A stretch of 37,074 nucleotides of DNA, from sequence record NC_003444. One strand, 5' to 3'. Position numbers and translations under genes: made by a program. The notes under the pieces were generated by a model. It made no database searches, was not told where the DNA came from, and worked only from the letters and a program-made list of their open reading frames with translations. Source of the stretch: Enterobacteria phage SfV. Positions 1-37,074 of the stretch are shown piece after piece. Numbering within the stretch: position 1 is the stretch's first letter; the number at the start of each line of letters is the position of its first letter.

Positions 1-67
1 TCCGGACTGCCCGCCCCATCGTTTTTTTATACCCGCGAAAAATGAAATTTAACCAGGAGTGCCGCAT

Positions 68-562
68 ATGGCTGGAACGGCGGGGCGTTCCGGGCGTCGC
101 CCCAAGCCAACGGCGCGCAAGGCGCTGGCCGGAAACCCCGGCAAGCGAGCCCTGAATAAAGATGAACCTGTTTTTACGCCCATCAAAGGTGTTGAGCCAC
201 CGGAGTGGTTCGCTGAAGAAGATCTCCCTCTCGCTACGATCATGTGGCAACTGACAACTAAAGAACTCTGCGGTCAGGGCCTGCTGTGCGTGACTGACCT
301 CGCGGTGCTTGAGCGGTGGTGCGTGGCCTACGAGTTCTGGCGGCGTGCCGTGAAAAATATTGCCAGACAGGGCAACACCATCACCGGTGCAATGGGCGGT
401 ATGGTCAAAAATCCGGAGCTGACCGCCAAAAAAGAACAGGAGTCCGAGATGAGCAGTACGGGGGCAATGCTCGGACTCGACCCCAGCAGCCGCCAGCGTC
501 TGATTGGCCTGGCGGGGAAGAAGAAAGCCACTAACCCGTTTCTGAAAATCATCGAATCATGA
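68..562 (+). CDS. terminase small subunit (P27-family-like)
   Basis: ORF 59..562; ATG at 68 preceded by AGGAG (55-59) at 8-nt spacing; basic N-terminus; directly upstream of and ATGA-overlapping the large terminase gene. Confidence 0.75.
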
Positions 563-2292
563 GCCGGAAATCTTACCCCAACGTAAATGCTGCCAATCAG
601 TATGCCCGTGATGTCGTGCGCGGAAAGATTGTGGCCTGCCAGTTTGTGATTCAGGCCTGCCAGCGCCATCTTGATGACCTGATGGCGGAAAAAAGTAAGT
701 CGTTTCGTTACCGCTTCGACAAGGACCTGGCTGAACGGGTCGCGAAATTTATTCAGCTGTTGCCACACACCAAGGGGGAGTGGGCATTCAAGAGGATGCC
801 CATCACGCTGGAACCGTGGCAGCTCTTTGTGATCTGCTGTGCGTTTGGCTGGGTCAATAAAGGCTCCCGGCTGCGCCGCTTCAGGGAGGTGTATACCGAA
901 ATCCCCCGTAAGAACGGCAAATCGGCAATCTCTGCCGGTGTTGCCCTGTATTGTTTTGCCTGTGATAACGAGTTCGGCGCGGAAGTGTATTCCGGTGCCA
1001 CGACAGAGAAACAGGCGTGGGAAGTCTTTCGCCCGGCGCGACTGATGTGTAAACGCACACCCATGCTGACGGAAGCGTTCGGGATTGAGGTTAACGCCTC
1101 AAACATGAACCGTCCGGAGGATGGCGCGCGGTTTGAACCGCTGATCGGCAACCCCGGTGATGGTTCATCACCCCACTGTGCCGTGGTTGATGAATATCAC
1201 GAGCATGCCACCGATGCGCTTTATACCACAATGCTTACCGGGATGGGGGCGCGACGTCAGCCACTGATGTGGGCCATCACCACCGCCGGGTACAACATTG
1301 AGGGGCCGTGCTACGACAAGCGGCGGGAAGTCATCGAGATGCTCAACGGCTCGGTGCCTAACGATGAACTGTTCGGGATCATCTATACCGTTGATGAAGG
1401 TGACGACTGGACCGACCCGCAGGTGCTGGAAAAAGCCAATCCAAATATTGGCGTGTCGGTTTATCGCGAATTTTTGTTAAGTCAGCAGCAGCGTGCGAAA
1501 AATAACGCCCGTCTGGCAAACGTCTTTAAAACAAAACACCTCAATATCTGGGTGTCGGCGCGTTCGGCGTATTTCAACCTGGTGAGCTGGCAGAGCTGCG
1601 AGGATAAATCACTGACCCTTGAGCAGTTCGAGGGGCAGCCGTGCATTCTGGCCTTTGACCTGGCGCGTAAGCTGGATATGAACAGCATGGCGCGACTTTA
1701 TACCCGCGAGATTGACGGTAAAACGCATTACTACAGTGTGGCCCCGCGCTTCTGGGTACCGTATGACACGGTGTACAGCGTCGAGAAAAATGAAGATAGA
1801 CGGACAGCCGAACGCTTTCAGAAATGGGTGGAAATGGGCGTCCTGACCGTTACCGATGGTGCTGAGGTGGATTATCGCTACATCCTCGAGGAGGCCAAAG
1901 CGGCGAACAAAATCAGCCCGGTCAGTGAGTCACCCATCGACCCCTTCGGGGCGACCGGGCTGTCACATGACCTTGCTGATGAAGATCTGAATCCCGTCAC
2001 TATCGTCCAGAACTTCGCCAATATGTCCGATCCGATGAAAGAGCTGGAAGCAGCGATTGAATCGGGACGCTTTCATCATGACGGCAATCCCATCATGACC
2101 TGGTGTATCGGCAATGTGGTCGGCAAAAACATGCCAGGTAACGATGATTTAGTGAAGCCCGTCAAGGAGCAGGCGGAAAACAAAATCGATGGTGCGGTTG
2201 CACTGATTATGACGATCGGTCGGGCAATGCTCAAAGAACCTGACGATTTCCTCTCATCTCTTGATCCGGACGATGATCTCTTAATTCTATGA
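559..2292 (+). CDS. terminase large subunit (HK97-type)
   Basis: 577-aa ORF; position between small terminase and portal; ATPase and nuclease regions typical of large terminases. Confidence 0.9.
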
Positions 2293-35629: not shown

Positions 35630-36106
35630 ATGCAGGCACTAAATTCCCAGCGTAAAGCTTTCCTGGATATGGTGGCATGGTCAGAAGGAACGGATAACGG
35701 GCGACAACCGACACGTAACCACGGTTATGATGTTATTGTTGGTGGCGAACTGTTCACTGATTACTCCGATCACCCTCGCAAACTTGTCACGCTAAACCCC
35801 AAACTCAAATCAACAGCCGCCGGACGTTACCAGCTTCTTTCACGCTGGTGGGATGCTTACCGTAAACAGCTTGGCCTGAAAGATTTTTCTCCAGAAAGCC
35901 AGGACGCTGTAGCTCTGCAGCAGATTAAAGAGCGTGGTGCTTTACCGATGATTGACCGCGGCAGTATTCGTCAGGCAATCGACCGTTGCAGCAATATCTG
36001 GGCGTCGTTACCTGGTGCAGGTTACGGTCAGTATGAACATAAAATCGGTGACCTGATTGCCCGATTTAAAAAAGCTGGTGGGGTAGTAAATGAAGCTGAG
36101 ATATAA
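35630..36106 (+). CDS. R: endolysin (lambda R-type lytic transglycosylase)
   Basis: 158 aa, near-identical by memory to lambda R (NSQRKAFLDMVAWSEGTDNGRQPTRNHGYDVIVGGELFTDYSDHPRK...). Confidence 0.9.
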   Translation: MQALNSQRKAFLDMVAWSEGTDNGRQPTRNHGYDVIVGGELFTDYSDHPRKLVTLNPKLKSTAAGRYQLLSRWWDAYRKQLGLKDFSPESQDAVALQQIKERGALPMIDRGSIRQAIDRCSNIWASLPGAGYGQYEHKIGDLIARFKKAGGVVNEAEI

Positions 36107-36482
36107 GCTGGTTATTGTTGCCTTCGTTGTTACCGTCATTGGTTCCTTCATCTGGTCTGCCGGGCATTACTACAGCAAATATCAGCACGAAAAGGAGCGT
36201 GCTGATGAGGCTGTACGAAATGCTGAATCAGCAACTGCCATTACCCGTAACGTTCTGCAATCACTGCAAATCATCAATACAGTTATAGAGGCTAACCAGC
36301 ATGCAAAACAGCAGATCGCACTGGAGTCACAGAGAACCCAGGAAGATATCAAAGTGGCTGTTGCGGATGATGATTGTGCTTCACGTCATGTGCCTGCTGC
36401 CGCTGCTGACCGGTTGCGGAAGTACGCGAACAGTTTACGTACCGATTCCGGCGGTACCGTTGCCAGCAAGCCTGACTACTGA
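36090..36482 (+). CDS. i-spanin (Rz-like)
   Basis: 130 aa; N-terminal TM segment then coiled-coil-like region; overlaps endolysin 3' end. Confidence 0.7.
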   Translation: MKLRYKLVIVAFVVTVIGSFIWSAGHYYSKYQHEKERADEAVRNAESATAITRNVLQSLQIINTVIEANQHAKQQIALESQRTQEDIKVAVADDDCASRHVPAAAADRLRKYANSLRTDSGGTVASKPDY

Positions 36483-36639
36483 AACTCCCCAGCCAGTCAT
36501 TCCCGAGCCGCTGACCTATGGGGCCAGTCTGGATCTGAATGTGAGCCTGCTTTCGGCGTTGGGACAATGCAATATTGACAAAGCGGGGATTCGAAGTATC
36601 GAGATGCGCCGTAACGCTTTGCTGGCAGCAGTCAGATAG
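36367..36639 (+). CDS. o-spanin lipoprotein (Rz1-like), +1 frame, overlapping and extending past Rz
   Basis: ORF 36301..36639; ATG-ATG at 36367; signal peptide ending in lipobox LLTGC; Pro-rich mature region. Confidence 0.6.
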   Translation: MMIVLHVMCLLPLLTGCGSTRTVYVPIPAVPLPASLTTETPQPVIPEPLTYGASLDLNVSLLSALGQCNIDKAGIRSIEMRRNALLAAVR

Positions 36640-36665: not shown

Positions 36666-37016
36666 ATGCCCCCTCGAACTCCAAAAGCCTGCCGCGTTCG
36701 CGGCTGCCGTAATACCACGACAGACCCGTCAGGCTACTGCGAAAGCCACAAAAGCGAAGGCTGGAAGCAATACAAACCTGGACAATCCCGTCATCAGCGC
36801 GGTTATGGTTCTAAGTGGGATGTTATCCGTGTGCGTGTGCTGCAACGTGACAAAGGCCTGTGTCAGTTATGTCTGCGTGCTGGTGTGGCGCGTGAAGCGA
36901 AAACCGTTGACCACATCATCCCTAAAGCACATGGCGGCACTGATGCCGACAGTAATCTGCAGAGTCTGTGCTGGCCGTGCCATAAGGCGAAGACGGCCCG
37001 TGAACGGCTTAAGTGA
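36666..37016 (+). CDS. HNH endonuclease
   Basis: 116 aa; Cys-rich N-terminus and HNH core (DHIIPKAHGG...N...CWPCH); AGGAA upstream of ATG. Confidence 0.85.
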   Translation: MPPRTPKACRVRGCRNTTTDPSGYCESHKSEGWKQYKPGQSRHQRGYGSKWDVIRVRVLQRDKGLCQLCLRAGVAREAKTVDHIIPKAHGGTDADSNLQSLCWPCHKAKTARERLK

Positions 37017-37074
37017 TAATAACTCTCAACTGTCTGAGGGGAGGGGCGGGTCAAATCTCTGTGACCTGACGTCT

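What the first reader, a model, noticed from the sequence alone, without database searches (positions are those of the whole stretch)
36666..37074. HNH endonuclease abutting the right genome end, small terminase at the left end, with an inverted repeat spanning the junction
HNH endonucleases immediately upstream of terS across the cos site are a known requirement for cos cleavage in HK97-like packaging systems. The window ends 58 nt after the HNH stop and starts 67 nt before terS, so the ends look like cos termini. If the ends are joined, an 8-bp inverted repeat ggggcggg (37043-37050) / cccgcccc (10-17) flanks a 33-nt spacer containing the palindrome gacgtc (37068-37073). This could be a cos-site symmetry element, though an 8-bp match in GC-rich DNA is weak evidence.
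Basis: partly seen in the sequence, partly recalled or inferred. Interest (0 to 1): 0.45.

Follow-up and report, generated by a model that had tools for sequence, protein, structure and literature searches.

The report
Known phage cos site, slightly misplaced
The window is a complete Shigella SfV-type phage genome whose ends lie in its already-described DNA-packaging (cos) site, but the real 10-base sticky end most likely sits at bases 8-17 rather than at the window boundary, and the reported 8-bp inverted repeat appears to be a by-product of two conserved cos elements rather than a symmetry signal.

Summary
The general reading (HNH–cos–terS, cos packaging) is right and already published for SfV/SfI/SfIV.

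Two specifics fail. First, the window boundary is not a terminus. Run-off sequencing of SfI virion DNA (identical sequence here) left a 10-nt gap, TGCCCGCCCC, which is window 8-17. phiP27's annotated cos, and the ends of HK97, φ1026b, PY54, Gamma and phi3626, fall in the same register. Second, the inverted repeat is not a cos symmetry element. Its right arm is the overhang itself and its left arm is part of a conserved G-run. It arises in about 6% of shuffles, is broken without compensation in relatives, and is absent in HK97.

What is there is a conserved architecture: G-run/TCAAATCT, about 31 nt, GAC|YG, a 10-nt C-rich 3′ end, then a T-tract/ACCCGCG/A-tract, the likely P27-type TerS site.

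I infer that the HNH nicks the bottom strand at 7|8 and TerL nicks the top strand at 17|18. Support comes from Gamma and phi3626, whose measured HNH nicking specificities match their own cos inner boundaries.

Verdict: already known, low interest.

The parts
36666..37016 (+). HNH endonuclease gene (116 aa). It has an N-terminal zinc ribbon (C9x4C14...C25xxH28) and an HNH core (C66xxC69, D82-H83, N97, C102xxC105-H106).
   Evidence: Pfam HNH E 5.5e-16. Translation. Full-length match to the GVE2 HNH endonuclease 5H0M, E 2e-12. 35% identity to phage Gamma HNH, E 8e-16. 40% identity over 65 aa to HK97 gp74.
37017..37035 (+). Hypervariable spacer directly after the HNH stop; not part of the conserved cos block.
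   Evidence: At least three unrelated alleles among 46 distinct spacers from close relatives.
37036..37050 (+). Conserved G-run GAGGGGAGGGGCGGG, the upstream cos element.
   Evidence: Conserved in 50/50 SfV-like, 56/61 HK97-like, 50/63 phi1026b-like and 20/39 Gamma-like distinct sites, versus about 0 in controls. Also present in phiP27, PY54, Morganella, Klebsiella, LincolnB and phi3626.
37051..37067 (+). TCAAATCT-CTG-N2-ACCT motif following the G-run.
   Evidence: Shared with HK97 in the same register: 41 nt from the T of TCAAATCT to the outer cut in both. The consensus is tcAAAtctct. The pattern occurs once in the window, against 0.12 expected.
37068..37073 (.). GACGTC palindrome; no evidence of function.
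   Evidence: Replaced by GCATCC, GACGCC or AAGGCC in relatives that keep the rest of the cos.
4..7 (+). GGAC immediately left of the cohesive end. The inferred bottom-strand nick lies between 7 and 8; the minus strand reads 5'-GGGGCGGGCA^GTCCGG-3'.
   Evidence: gGAC|YG is nearly invariant across 129 distinct aligned sites. AC|CG or GT|CG at this boundary matches the measured nicking sites of the HNH enzymes of Gamma and phi3626. The strand assignment is inference.
8..17 (+). 10-nt cohesive end TGCCCGCCCC, inferred to be a 3' overhang. The top-strand cut lies between 17 and 18.
   Evidence: Run-off sequencing of SfI virion DNA left this 10-nt gap, and the SfI sequence is identical here. The phiP27 record annotates the aligned CGCCCGCCCC as 'cos-site'. 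The register matches the HK97, phi1026b and PY54 record ends. Phi1026b-group ends are ten-base 3' extensions.
18..52 (+). Putative TerS-binding region (cosB-like): T7 tract at 22-28, ACCCGCG at 31-37, A5 at 38-42, then AAATTTAA.
   Evidence: This non-coding block is conserved between E. coli, Klebsiella and Burkholderia phages that share a P27-family TerS. It has a similar position and design to the HK97 TerS site at +15..+29, a C:G step next to an A-tract. Binding was not tested.
68..562 (+). Small terminase gene (P27 family); RBS AGGAG at 55-59.
   Evidence: PF05119 E 2.3e-21. 51% identity to the phi1026b-like TerS. No detectable similarity to HK97 gp1.
559..2292 (+). Large terminase gene (ATPase and nuclease domains).
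   Evidence: PF03354 and PF20441. 26% identity over 520 aa to HK97 gp2, E 4e-31.

Best explanation
The window is a complete SfV-type temperate phage genome, linearised inside its cos region.

cos is an asymmetric, HK97/P27-type site of about 105 bp spanning the joined ends. It consists of:
- a G-run plus TCAAATCT element (37036-37067);
- about 31 nt further on, GGAC (4-7);
- the 10-nt C-rich cohesive end TGCCCGCCCC (8-17);
- a T-tract/ACCCGCG/A-tract block (18-52) just before terS.

Proposed mechanism:
- On concatemeric DNA, the P27-family TerS binds the downstream A/T-tract block and positions TerL.
- The zinc-ribbon HNH protein encoded just upstream nicks the bottom strand at 7|8 (5'-CA^GT-3').
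- The TerL nuclease nicks the top strand 10 nt away at 17|18.
- This gives 10-nt 3' overhangs.
- Packaging then runs rightwards from terS.

Status of each step:
- Shown by the literature or record annotation for close relatives: cos packaging and the 10-nt end.
- Shown here: homology, the shared register and the conservation pattern.
- Inferred: overhang polarity in this phage, which nuclease cuts which strand, TerS binding to 18-52, and any role for the G-run.

The 8-bp inverted repeat arises only because the G-rich upstream element and the C-rich overhang happen to be complementary in this clade.
For: Identity and context:
- The window length of 37,074 bp equals the published SfV genome size.
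- The nearest records are SfI, SfII, SfIV and E. coli prophages at 95-98% identity.

Position of the end:
- SfI run-off sequencing left a 10-nt gap, TGCCCGCCCC. The SfI sequence is identical to the window across the junction and its record ends exactly with that decamer.
- phiP27, whose HNH is 78% identical, annotates the aligned CGCCCGCCCC as its cos-site.
- A gapless alignment with HK97 puts HK97's mapped right end at window 17|18. The distance from TCAAATCT is 41 nt in both, and terS starts at +50 versus +51.
- The phi1026b, PY54, Gamma, LincolnB and phi3626 ends fit the same frame.

3' polarity:
- A gap (rather than an overlap) between run-off reads implies recessed 5' ends; this is my inference.
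- Reported 3' ends: HK97 10-nt, phi644-2/phiE125 ten-base, phi3626 9-nt by record annotation, P. larvae phages 9-nt.

Architecture:
- Found in 50/50, 56/61, 20/39 and 50/63 distinct HNH-downstream regions in the four clades. Controls gave 0-2 (reverse complement, upstream) and shuffle means of 0.1-2.9.

HNH nick assignment:
- N.phiGamma nicks CG^GT, and Gamma's end is GTAC|CGCCGCCCC.
- N.phi3626 nicks BCG^AY, and its annotated 3' end CGCAGTGTC is preceded by GGT.
- N.phi105's RAC^CR site lies 1 nt from its annotated cos.

TerS site:
- The block after the cut is conserved between Burkholderia and E. coli phages with P27-family TerS.
Against: - No end-mapping of this exact genome could be examined. 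The original SfV paper is not in the library, and the deposited record starts 7 nt left of the proposed inner nick for reasons I could not determine.
- The SfI paper does not state overhang polarity. One paper describes the Wbeta/Gamma end CGCCGCCCC as a 5' overhang, by PhageTerm. If that is correct, the Gamma correspondence would be on the wrong strand.
- HK97 gp74, lactococcal sk1 HrdP and S. aureus phage HNH proteins are reported as non-specific nucleases in vitro.
- The window has AC|TG rather than AC|CG at the inner boundary.
- The phi105 match is off by one base.
- The HNH here is only 35% identical to N.phiGamma.
- TerS binding to 18-52 and any role for the G-run are untested.
Confidence: 0.8

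Rival explanations
1. One reading: the window ends are the physical cos termini, and the inverted repeat GGGGCGGG/CCCGCCCC, with the GACGTC palindrome between the arms, is a two-fold symmetry element recognised by the cleavage machinery, as in lambda cosN.
For: The repeat is exact and spans the junction. It is kept in 70 of 80 close relatives. A 7-bp version (GGGGCGG/CCGCCCC) exists in phage Gamma. Arms re-paired at random among sites give slightly lower complementarity, 4.92 against 5.18 observed, though that control ignores shared ancestry.
Against: 5.9% of shuffles give such a repeat. The right arm lies inside the experimentally defined overhang. The repeat's centre is about 15 nt left of the inner nick, so it cannot specify symmetric nicks. 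All five variant arm combinations among relatives break the repeat, with no compensatory change. The HK97 clade has at most 3-5 complementary bases and packages normally. Four distinct Gamma-clade sites carry GGGGTGGG with an unchanged overhang. GACGTC is not conserved.
Confidence: 0.05
2. The repeat plus the following T7 tract is an intrinsic transcription terminator, or another RNA or ssDNA hairpin, at the end of the late lysis/HNH transcript.
For: A G/C-rich stem is followed 4 nt later by TTTTTTT. The minimum-free-energy fold pairs the two arms.
Against: The fold energy is ordinary: z = -0.61, and 39 of 200 shuffles fold at least as well. The loop would be 33 nt. The terminator scan finds nothing at the junction. 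The HK97 equivalent gives z = +1.3. By analogy with lambdoid late operons, a general-knowledge argument, late transcription would need to cross cos to reach terS and terL.
Confidence: 0.04
3. The cos position is as in the best explanation, but the HNH protein does not cut at a defined site. It only stimulates TerL, which makes both nicks, the second after a 10-bp translocation step.
For: This alternative is stated explicitly for HK97. gp74 enhances TerL cleavage and is non-specific on its own. sk1 HrdP is non-specific.
Against: Measured HNH specificities of Gamma and phi3626 coincide with their own cos inner boundaries and differ from each other in step with the cos sequence. GAC|YG is the best-conserved part of the cut region, whereas the outer cut has no conserved context.
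Confidence: 0.25
4. The HNH gene is a free-standing homing endonuclease, a selfish element that happens to sit at the genome end and has no packaging role.
For: Some records annotate homologues as 'homing endonuclease'.
Against: The position between the lysis genes and terS is conserved in four HNH clades from Gram-negative and Gram-positive hosts, always with the same downstream cos architecture. HK97 gp74 is described as essential for packaging in vivo.
Confidence: 0.03

Closest known systems
cos sites of Shigella phages SfI/SfII/SfIV and E. coli Stx2e phage phiP27 (P27-family small terminase)
   Same: The sequence from the G-run to terS is identical or near-identical. SfI's experimentally missing decamer TGCCCGCCCC equals window 8-17. 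phiP27's annotated cos-site CGCCCGCCCC is in the same register. The HNH is 78-97% identical, and TerS is in the same Pfam family.
   Different: Essentially nothing apart from where each record was linearised. phiP27 has C rather than T at overhang position 1 and a shorter T-tract.
HK97 cos with gp74 (HNH), gp1 (TerS) and gp2 (TerL)
   Same: The gene order HNH-cos-terS-terL-portal-protease-capsid is the same. TerL and the HNH are homologous. Both have a G-run plus TCAAATCT 41 nt upstream of the outer cut, GAC|CG(TG) at the inner boundary, a 10-nt C-rich end, terS starting at +50/+51, and a C:G step next to an A/T tract downstream.
   Different: TerS shows no detectable similarity. HK97 gp74 lacks the N-terminal zinc ribbon. 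The HK97 HNH gene lies about 320 nt from cos, against 58 nt from the window end here. The overhang sequence differs (CGCCGCCAAA). HK97 has no inverted repeat.
Burkholderia phages phi1026b / phiE125 / phi644-2
   Same: TerS is 51% identical. The HNH is about 50% identical by tblastn. Ten-base 3' extensions ending CGCCCGCTTC sit at the aligned position. The downstream block GTCGAATTTTCACGCCCGCGAAATTAAAAATT resembles window 18-50.
   Different: The motif after the G-run is GAAAAAGTCT rather than TCAAATCT. They are siphoviruses of a distant host.
Group-1 zinc-ribbon HNH nicking endonucleases next to terminase genes (N.phiGamma, GVE2 HNHE 5H0M, N.phi3626, N.phi105; Xu & Gupta 2013)
   Same: The domain layout and size are the same, with full-length homology. 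The gene position next to cos and terS is the same. Their own cos regions share the G/C-run, a 29-31 nt spacing, and an inner boundary that equals the enzyme's nick site.
   Different: The nicking specificity of the window's enzyme is unmeasured. The predicted site is CA^GT rather than CG^GT. Overhangs are 7-9 nt in the Gram-positive phages.
Lambda cos (cosQ-cosN-cosB)
   Same: Both have a tripartite logic: an upstream element, a nicking site, and a downstream small-terminase binding region adjacent to the small terminase gene.
   Different: By general knowledge, lambda has a 12-nt 5' overhang, a partly two-fold symmetric cosN, no HNH partner, and an unrelated small terminase. Here the site is asymmetric and the end is most likely a 10-nt 3' overhang.

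Membership tests
HK97-type HNH-assisted cos packaging module | HNH gene immediately upstream of terS/terL across cos in the circular map | tested here: met
   HNH at 36666-37016 and terS at 68-562; the ends join seamlessly.
HK97-type HNH-assisted cos packaging module | Large terminase homologous to HK97 gp2, followed by portal, S78 protease and HK97-fold capsid genes | tested here: met
   BLASTP E 4e-31, 26% identity over 520 aa. Pfam Phage_portal, Peptidase_S78 and Phage_capsid.
HK97-type HNH-assisted cos packaging module | Small terminase homologous to HK97 gp1 | tested here: not met
   No BLASTP similarity. gp1 has no Pfam family, while the window's TerS is PF05119/P27.
HK97-type HNH-assisted cos packaging module | Defined 10-nt 3' cohesive ends | not testable with these tools
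   Only indirect support: the SfI 10-nt gap, the register match to HK97 and phi1026b ends, and reported 3' polarity in relatives.
HK97-type HNH-assisted cos packaging module | HNH protein required for cos cleavage or packaging | not testable with these tools
   Known for HK97 gp74 from the literature. No data for SfV.
P27-family small-terminase cos phages (phiP27, SfI, phi1026b) | TerS in PF05119 / TIGR01558 | tested here: met
   E 2.3e-21. RefSeq names the E. coli homologues 'phage terminase small subunit P27 family'.
P27-family small-terminase cos phages (phiP27, SfI, phi1026b) | C-rich decamer YGCCCGCYYC at a fixed distance from the G-run, followed by a T-tract and ACRCCCGCG | tested here: met
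   Alignments.
Group-1 zinc-ribbon HNH nickases (Xu & Gupta) | N-terminal CxxxxC...CxxH zinc ribbon plus a C-terminal HNH with [CxxC]2 | tested here: met
   C9x4C14, C25xxH28, C66xxC69, H83, N97, C102xxC105-H106. Definition.
Group-1 zinc-ribbon HNH nickases (Xu & Gupta) | Full-length homology to a characterised member | tested here: met
   GVE2 HNHE 5H0M residues 1-126, E 2e-12. N.phiGamma 35% identity, E 8e-16.
Group-1 zinc-ribbon HNH nickases (Xu & Gupta) | Strand-specific nicking at a 3-5 bp site (CG^GT type) | not testable with these tools
   Predicted CA^GT on the minus strand at 7|8; needs biochemistry.
Lambda-like symmetric cosN | Nicks placed symmetrically about a two-fold axis formed by inverted half-sites | tested here: not met
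   The overhang TGCCC|GCCCC has no dyad. The centre of the reported repeat (about 37067) lies outside the 7|8-17|18 interval.
Intrinsic terminator | Short G+C stem, 3-8 nt loop, then a T-run; stable fold | tested here: not met
   33-nt loop, z = -0.61, no scan hit.
Headful (pac) packaging | Permuted, terminally redundant ends; P22/Sf6-type terminase | tested here: not met
   TerL is of the HK97 type. The SfI and SfIV papers contrast this group with the pac phages Sf6 and SfX. The ends of this genome itself were not examined.

The most novel reading that the evidence does not exclude
The terminase-adjacent zinc-ribbon HNH proteins are the sequence-specific nickases that make the inner (bottom-strand) cut of 3'-overhang cos sites, at GAC|YG. 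TerL makes the outer cut 7-10 nt away. Both cuts are set in register, about 30 and 40 nt from a conserved G:C-run/AAATC element shared by phages of Proteobacteria and Firmicutes.

For this window, that means the HNH cuts the minus strand at 7|8.

The support is a match between enzyme and site. Gamma pairs CG^GT with AC|CG, and phi3626 pairs CG^AY with GT|CG. phi105 fits to within 1 nt.

In the papers I could read this link is not drawn. Xu & Gupta called the biological function unknown, and a 2026 paper still calls the division of labour 'suggested'. I cannot exclude that it is published elsewhere.
Probability: 0.45. Interest if true: 0.5.

Novelty: already known. Interest (0 to 1): 0.22.

Why it matters
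For this window it matters little. It confirms that the sequence is a complete SfV-type genome with a published type of cos site, and it corrects the likely position of the physical ends by 7-17 nt, which is useful for annotation, PhageTerm-style checks and cos-plasmid design.

The wider comparison matters somewhat more. It gives a simple sequence rule (G-run, about 31 nt, GAC|YG, then 9-10 nt) that locates cos in over a thousand E. coli prophages and in distant phages. It also gives a concrete, testable assignment of the two cos nicks to HNH and TerL. The packaging literature I read still treats that assignment as unresolved.

Tried and rejected
- **Original SfV paper and Kala et al. 2014.** Neither is held in the library, so I could not learn how the SfV record's position 1 was chosen.
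- **Full-text search for the overhang strings.** It returned only unrelated primer hits.
- **Collection scan with the motif GNGGGSSGGRTCAAATCY.** I replaced it with motif-independent sampling through HNH homologues.
- **GVE2 genome end.** The record is arranged differently and the HNH was not in the fetched stretch, so I did not pursue it.
- **Lrm1.** The record end is not obviously at cos. AC|CCCCCT lies 44 nt from the end and does not fit AC^CSSD strictly, so this is inconclusive.
- **Serratia phage Swain.** Its HNH is 42% identical but there is no G-run architecture, so the design is not universal among HNH-terminase phages.
- **Terminator or hairpin reading of the repeat.** Rejected.
- **Two-fold symmetry reading.** Rejected.
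- **Homology between the HK97 and SfV TerS proteins**, as an explanation for the similar downstream sites. No sequence evidence. I therefore call the ACCCG plus A/T-tract likeness a resemblance only.

Full report
**1. Observation**

- ORF 36666-37016 encodes a 116-aa HNH endonuclease (PF01844, E 5.5e-16). Its stop lies 58 nt before the window end.
- terS (PF05119, E 2.3e-21) starts with the ATG at 68. It is followed by terL, portal, an S78 protease and an HK97-fold capsid gene.
- GGGGCGGG (37043-50) and CCCGCCCC (10-17) are exact reverse complements, separated by 33 nt once the ends are joined. GACGTC is at 37068-73.
- Joining the ends is legitimate. Record ON470603 reads ...GACCTGACGTCT|TCCGGACTGCCCGCCCC... 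without interruption. The joined 147 nt occur 100% identical in E. coli chromosomes, in 1,120 of 5,426 complete genomes.
- The repeat is statistically ordinary. 5.9% of dinucleotide shuffles of the 125-nt spacer contain a perfect 8-bp inverted repeat with a 3-60 nt spacer, and the genome holds 55 such pairs.

**2. What the window is**

Its length of 37,074 bp is the published size of Shigella phage SfV (quoted in PMC3636060). Its closest records are SfI, SfII, SfIV and E. coli prophages. These records are linearised at different points of the same sequence:
- SfIV at window 1;
- SfII 58 nt earlier;
- SfI at window 18.

**3. Where the cohesive end really is**

The SfI authors sequenced off both ends of virion DNA and found 10 nt missing relative to the prophage, 5'-TGCCCGCCCC-3'. 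SfI is identical to the window from the G-run through this decamer, and its record ends with exactly those ten bases. In the window they are positions 8-17.

Independent support:
- phiP27, whose HNH is 78% identical, carries a GenBank 'cos-site' feature on the aligned decamer CGCCCGCCCC.
- A gapless alignment with HK97, anchored on a shared G-run/TCAAATCT motif, puts HK97's mapped right end at window 17|18. The distance is 41 nt in both. It is only 24 nt to the window boundary. terS starts at +50 in HK97 and +51 here.
- The record ends of phi1026b (CGCCCGCTTC) and PY54 (TGCCTGTCCC) fall in the same frame.

A gap between run-off reads, rather than an overlap, implies recessed 5' ends and therefore 3' overhangs. 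This is my inference. It agrees with the following reports:
- 10-nt 3' ends in HK97;
- ten-base 3' extensions in the phiE125/phi644-2 group;
- an annotated 9-nt 3' end in phi3626;
- 9-nt 3' ends in P. larvae phages.

One paper calls the Wbeta/Gamma end a 5' overhang, so polarity is not beyond doubt in every clade.

**4. A conserved architecture**

I sampled regions downstream of HNH homologues from IMG/VR without using the DNA motif. The pattern tested was 'G-run (at least 9 G in 12), then 29-33 nt, then AC|YG'.

| Clade | Distinct regions with the pattern |
|---|---|
| SfV-like | 50/50 |
| HK97-like | 56/61 |
| Gamma-like | 20/39 |
| phi1026b-like | 50/63 |

Controls: reverse-complement and upstream regions gave 0-2 per clade, and shuffles averaged 0.1-2.9 per clade.

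The consensus of 129 distinct sites is:

gGgggGGGGgGG.tcAAAtctct...gGAC | cGCCcgC..c | gTc..aTTTT.AcgCcc.Cgaa

Among close relatives, the 20 nt just after the HNH stop are hypervariable. Conservation begins at the G-run and runs to the terS ribosome-binding site.

**5. The inverted repeat**

- Its right arm is 8 of the 10 overhang bases, and its left arm is the 3' part of the G-run.
- 70 of the 80 close-relative sequences compared (IMG/VR loci with spacer sequence, plus the window and two phage records) keep both arms. The other ten (five variant arm combinations) break the repeat, and none shows a compensating change.
- Four distinct Gamma-clade sites carry GGGGTGGG with an unchanged overhang. 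The HK97 clade has only 3-5 complementary bases.
- The Klebsiella relative has an HK97-like decamer (CGCCGCCTCA) with an unchanged G-run.
- The repeat's centre lies outside the interval between the nicks.
- GACGTC is replaced in several relatives.
- As RNA the junction folds no better than shuffles (z = -0.61), and no terminator is called.

I conclude the repeat is incidental: a G-rich element and a C-rich overhang that happen to be complementary in this clade.

**6. Mechanism (partly inferred)**

*TerS.* The window's TerS is P27-family and is 51% identical to that of a phi1026b-like Burkholderia phage. It has no detectable similarity to HK97 gp1. The non-coding block after the cut (T-tract, ACRCCCGCG, A-rich) is conserved between these distant phages. 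It occupies a position similar to HK97's mapped TerS site at +15..+29, a C:G step beside an A-tract. So 18-52 is the likely TerS site.

*Nicks.* The HNH here is a full-length homologue of the zinc-ribbon nickases characterised by Xu & Gupta:
- GVE2 HNHE (5H0M), E 2e-12;
- N.phiGamma, 35% identity.

Each enzyme's measured specificity fits its own phage's cos:

| Enzyme | Measured nick site | Own genome end | Fit |
|---|---|---|---|
| N.phiGamma | CG^GT | ...GTAC\|CGCCGCCCC | Exact; the inner boundary on the bottom strand is CG^GT |
| N.phi3626 | BCG^AY | annotated 3' end CGCAGTGTC, preceded by GGT | Exact; bottom strand GCG^AC |
| N.phi105 | RAC^CR | annotated 7-nt cos GCGCTCC | Site lies 1 nt from the cos boundary |

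GAC|YG is also the most conserved part of the cut region, whereas the outer cut has no conserved context.

I therefore propose that the HNH nicks the minus strand at 7|8 (CA^GT) and TerL nicks the plus strand at 17|18.

Against this: gp74 and other packaging HNH proteins are non-specific in vitro. HK97 workers also keep open a model in which TerL makes both cuts.

The role of the G-run is unknown. TerL and the HNH are homologous to their HK97 counterparts while TerS is not, so I suspect the G-run is read by TerL or the HNH, or acts through DNA shape. In phi105 it is a C-run.

**7. Comparison and novelty**

This is the published cos region of the SfV/SfI/phiP27 group and an instance of the HK97-type HNH-assisted packaging module. 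One defining feature was not met: TerS is not gp1-like. It fits better as a P27-TerS cos phage. See the membership table.

The finding is therefore already known.

The only part that might be new is the enzyme-to-site correspondence in section 6. I could not find it stated in the papers I could read, but I cannot exclude that it is published elsewhere.

**8. Limits**

- No virion-end data for this exact genome were available.
- Polarity and strand assignment are inferred.
- Counts across IMG/VR loci are not phylogenetically independent.

Noticed in passing
L090 (phi1026b gp83 note), L091 1001-1363 (PY54 gene 66), L094 698-1051 (Morganella IME1369_02), and hits H60, H82 and H1/L001 2315-2500: Homologues of this HNH endonuclease are annotated as 'holin', 'class I holin' or 'lysis protein' in several public records. 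In ON470603 the gene is truncated to a 186-nt 'homing endonuclease'. These look like annotation errors carried over from its position next to the lysis cassette.
   Followed up: partly
L005 1150-1260; L065 and L080 about 1885-2000: Mosaic joints fall at the cos cut. The Klebsiella phage combines an HK97-like decamer (CGCCGCCTCA) with SfV-like downstream DNA. L065 and L080 keep the SfV-like upstream half, but their similarity to the window ends right after the overhang and a different P27-family terS follows.
   Followed up: partly
window 37017-37035: The 20 nt directly after the HNH stop exist in at least three unrelated alleles among otherwise 95-99% identical relatives. This makes a sharp boundary with the conserved cos block.
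   Followed up: partly
L059, L063, L072 (IMG/VR contigs): Three viral contigs end exactly at the HNH stop codon, just before the G-run. This could be an assembly break at the G-rich stretch or a prophage-boundary call. The cause is unknown.
   Followed up: no
L302 975-1026 (phi105): In phi105 the purine run upstream of cos is a C-run (GACCCCCCACCC) instead of a G-run, at the same 30-nt distance from GAC|CG. The element may therefore act as a G:C tract irrespective of strand.
   Followed up: no
L098 900-915 (phage Gamma); L098 end and L099 start: In Gamma the G-run overlaps the HNH stop codon, so cos begins inside the gene. The record carries the 9-nt CGCCGCCCC at both ends. PMC8878798 calls this end a 5' overhang, whereas related systems are reported as 3'.
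   Followed up: partly
window 36090-36482 and 36301-36639: These are the lysis genes just upstream of the HNH. A DUF2570 (Rz-like) ORF overlaps, in another frame, an Rz1/LysC-family ORF (PF23793), which is an overlapped spanin pair.
   Followed up: no
L092 (Serratia phage Swain right end): An HNH homologue (42% identical) sits 71 nt from the record end with no G-run/AAATC/GAC|YG architecture. Not all terminase-adjacent HNH phages share this cos design.
   Followed up: no
joined junction, E. coli genome search: The exact cos junction is present in 1,120 of 5,426 complete E. coli genomes, up to 4 copies per genome and 13 copies on plasmids. This packaging module is among the commonest in E. coli prophages.
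   Followed up: no
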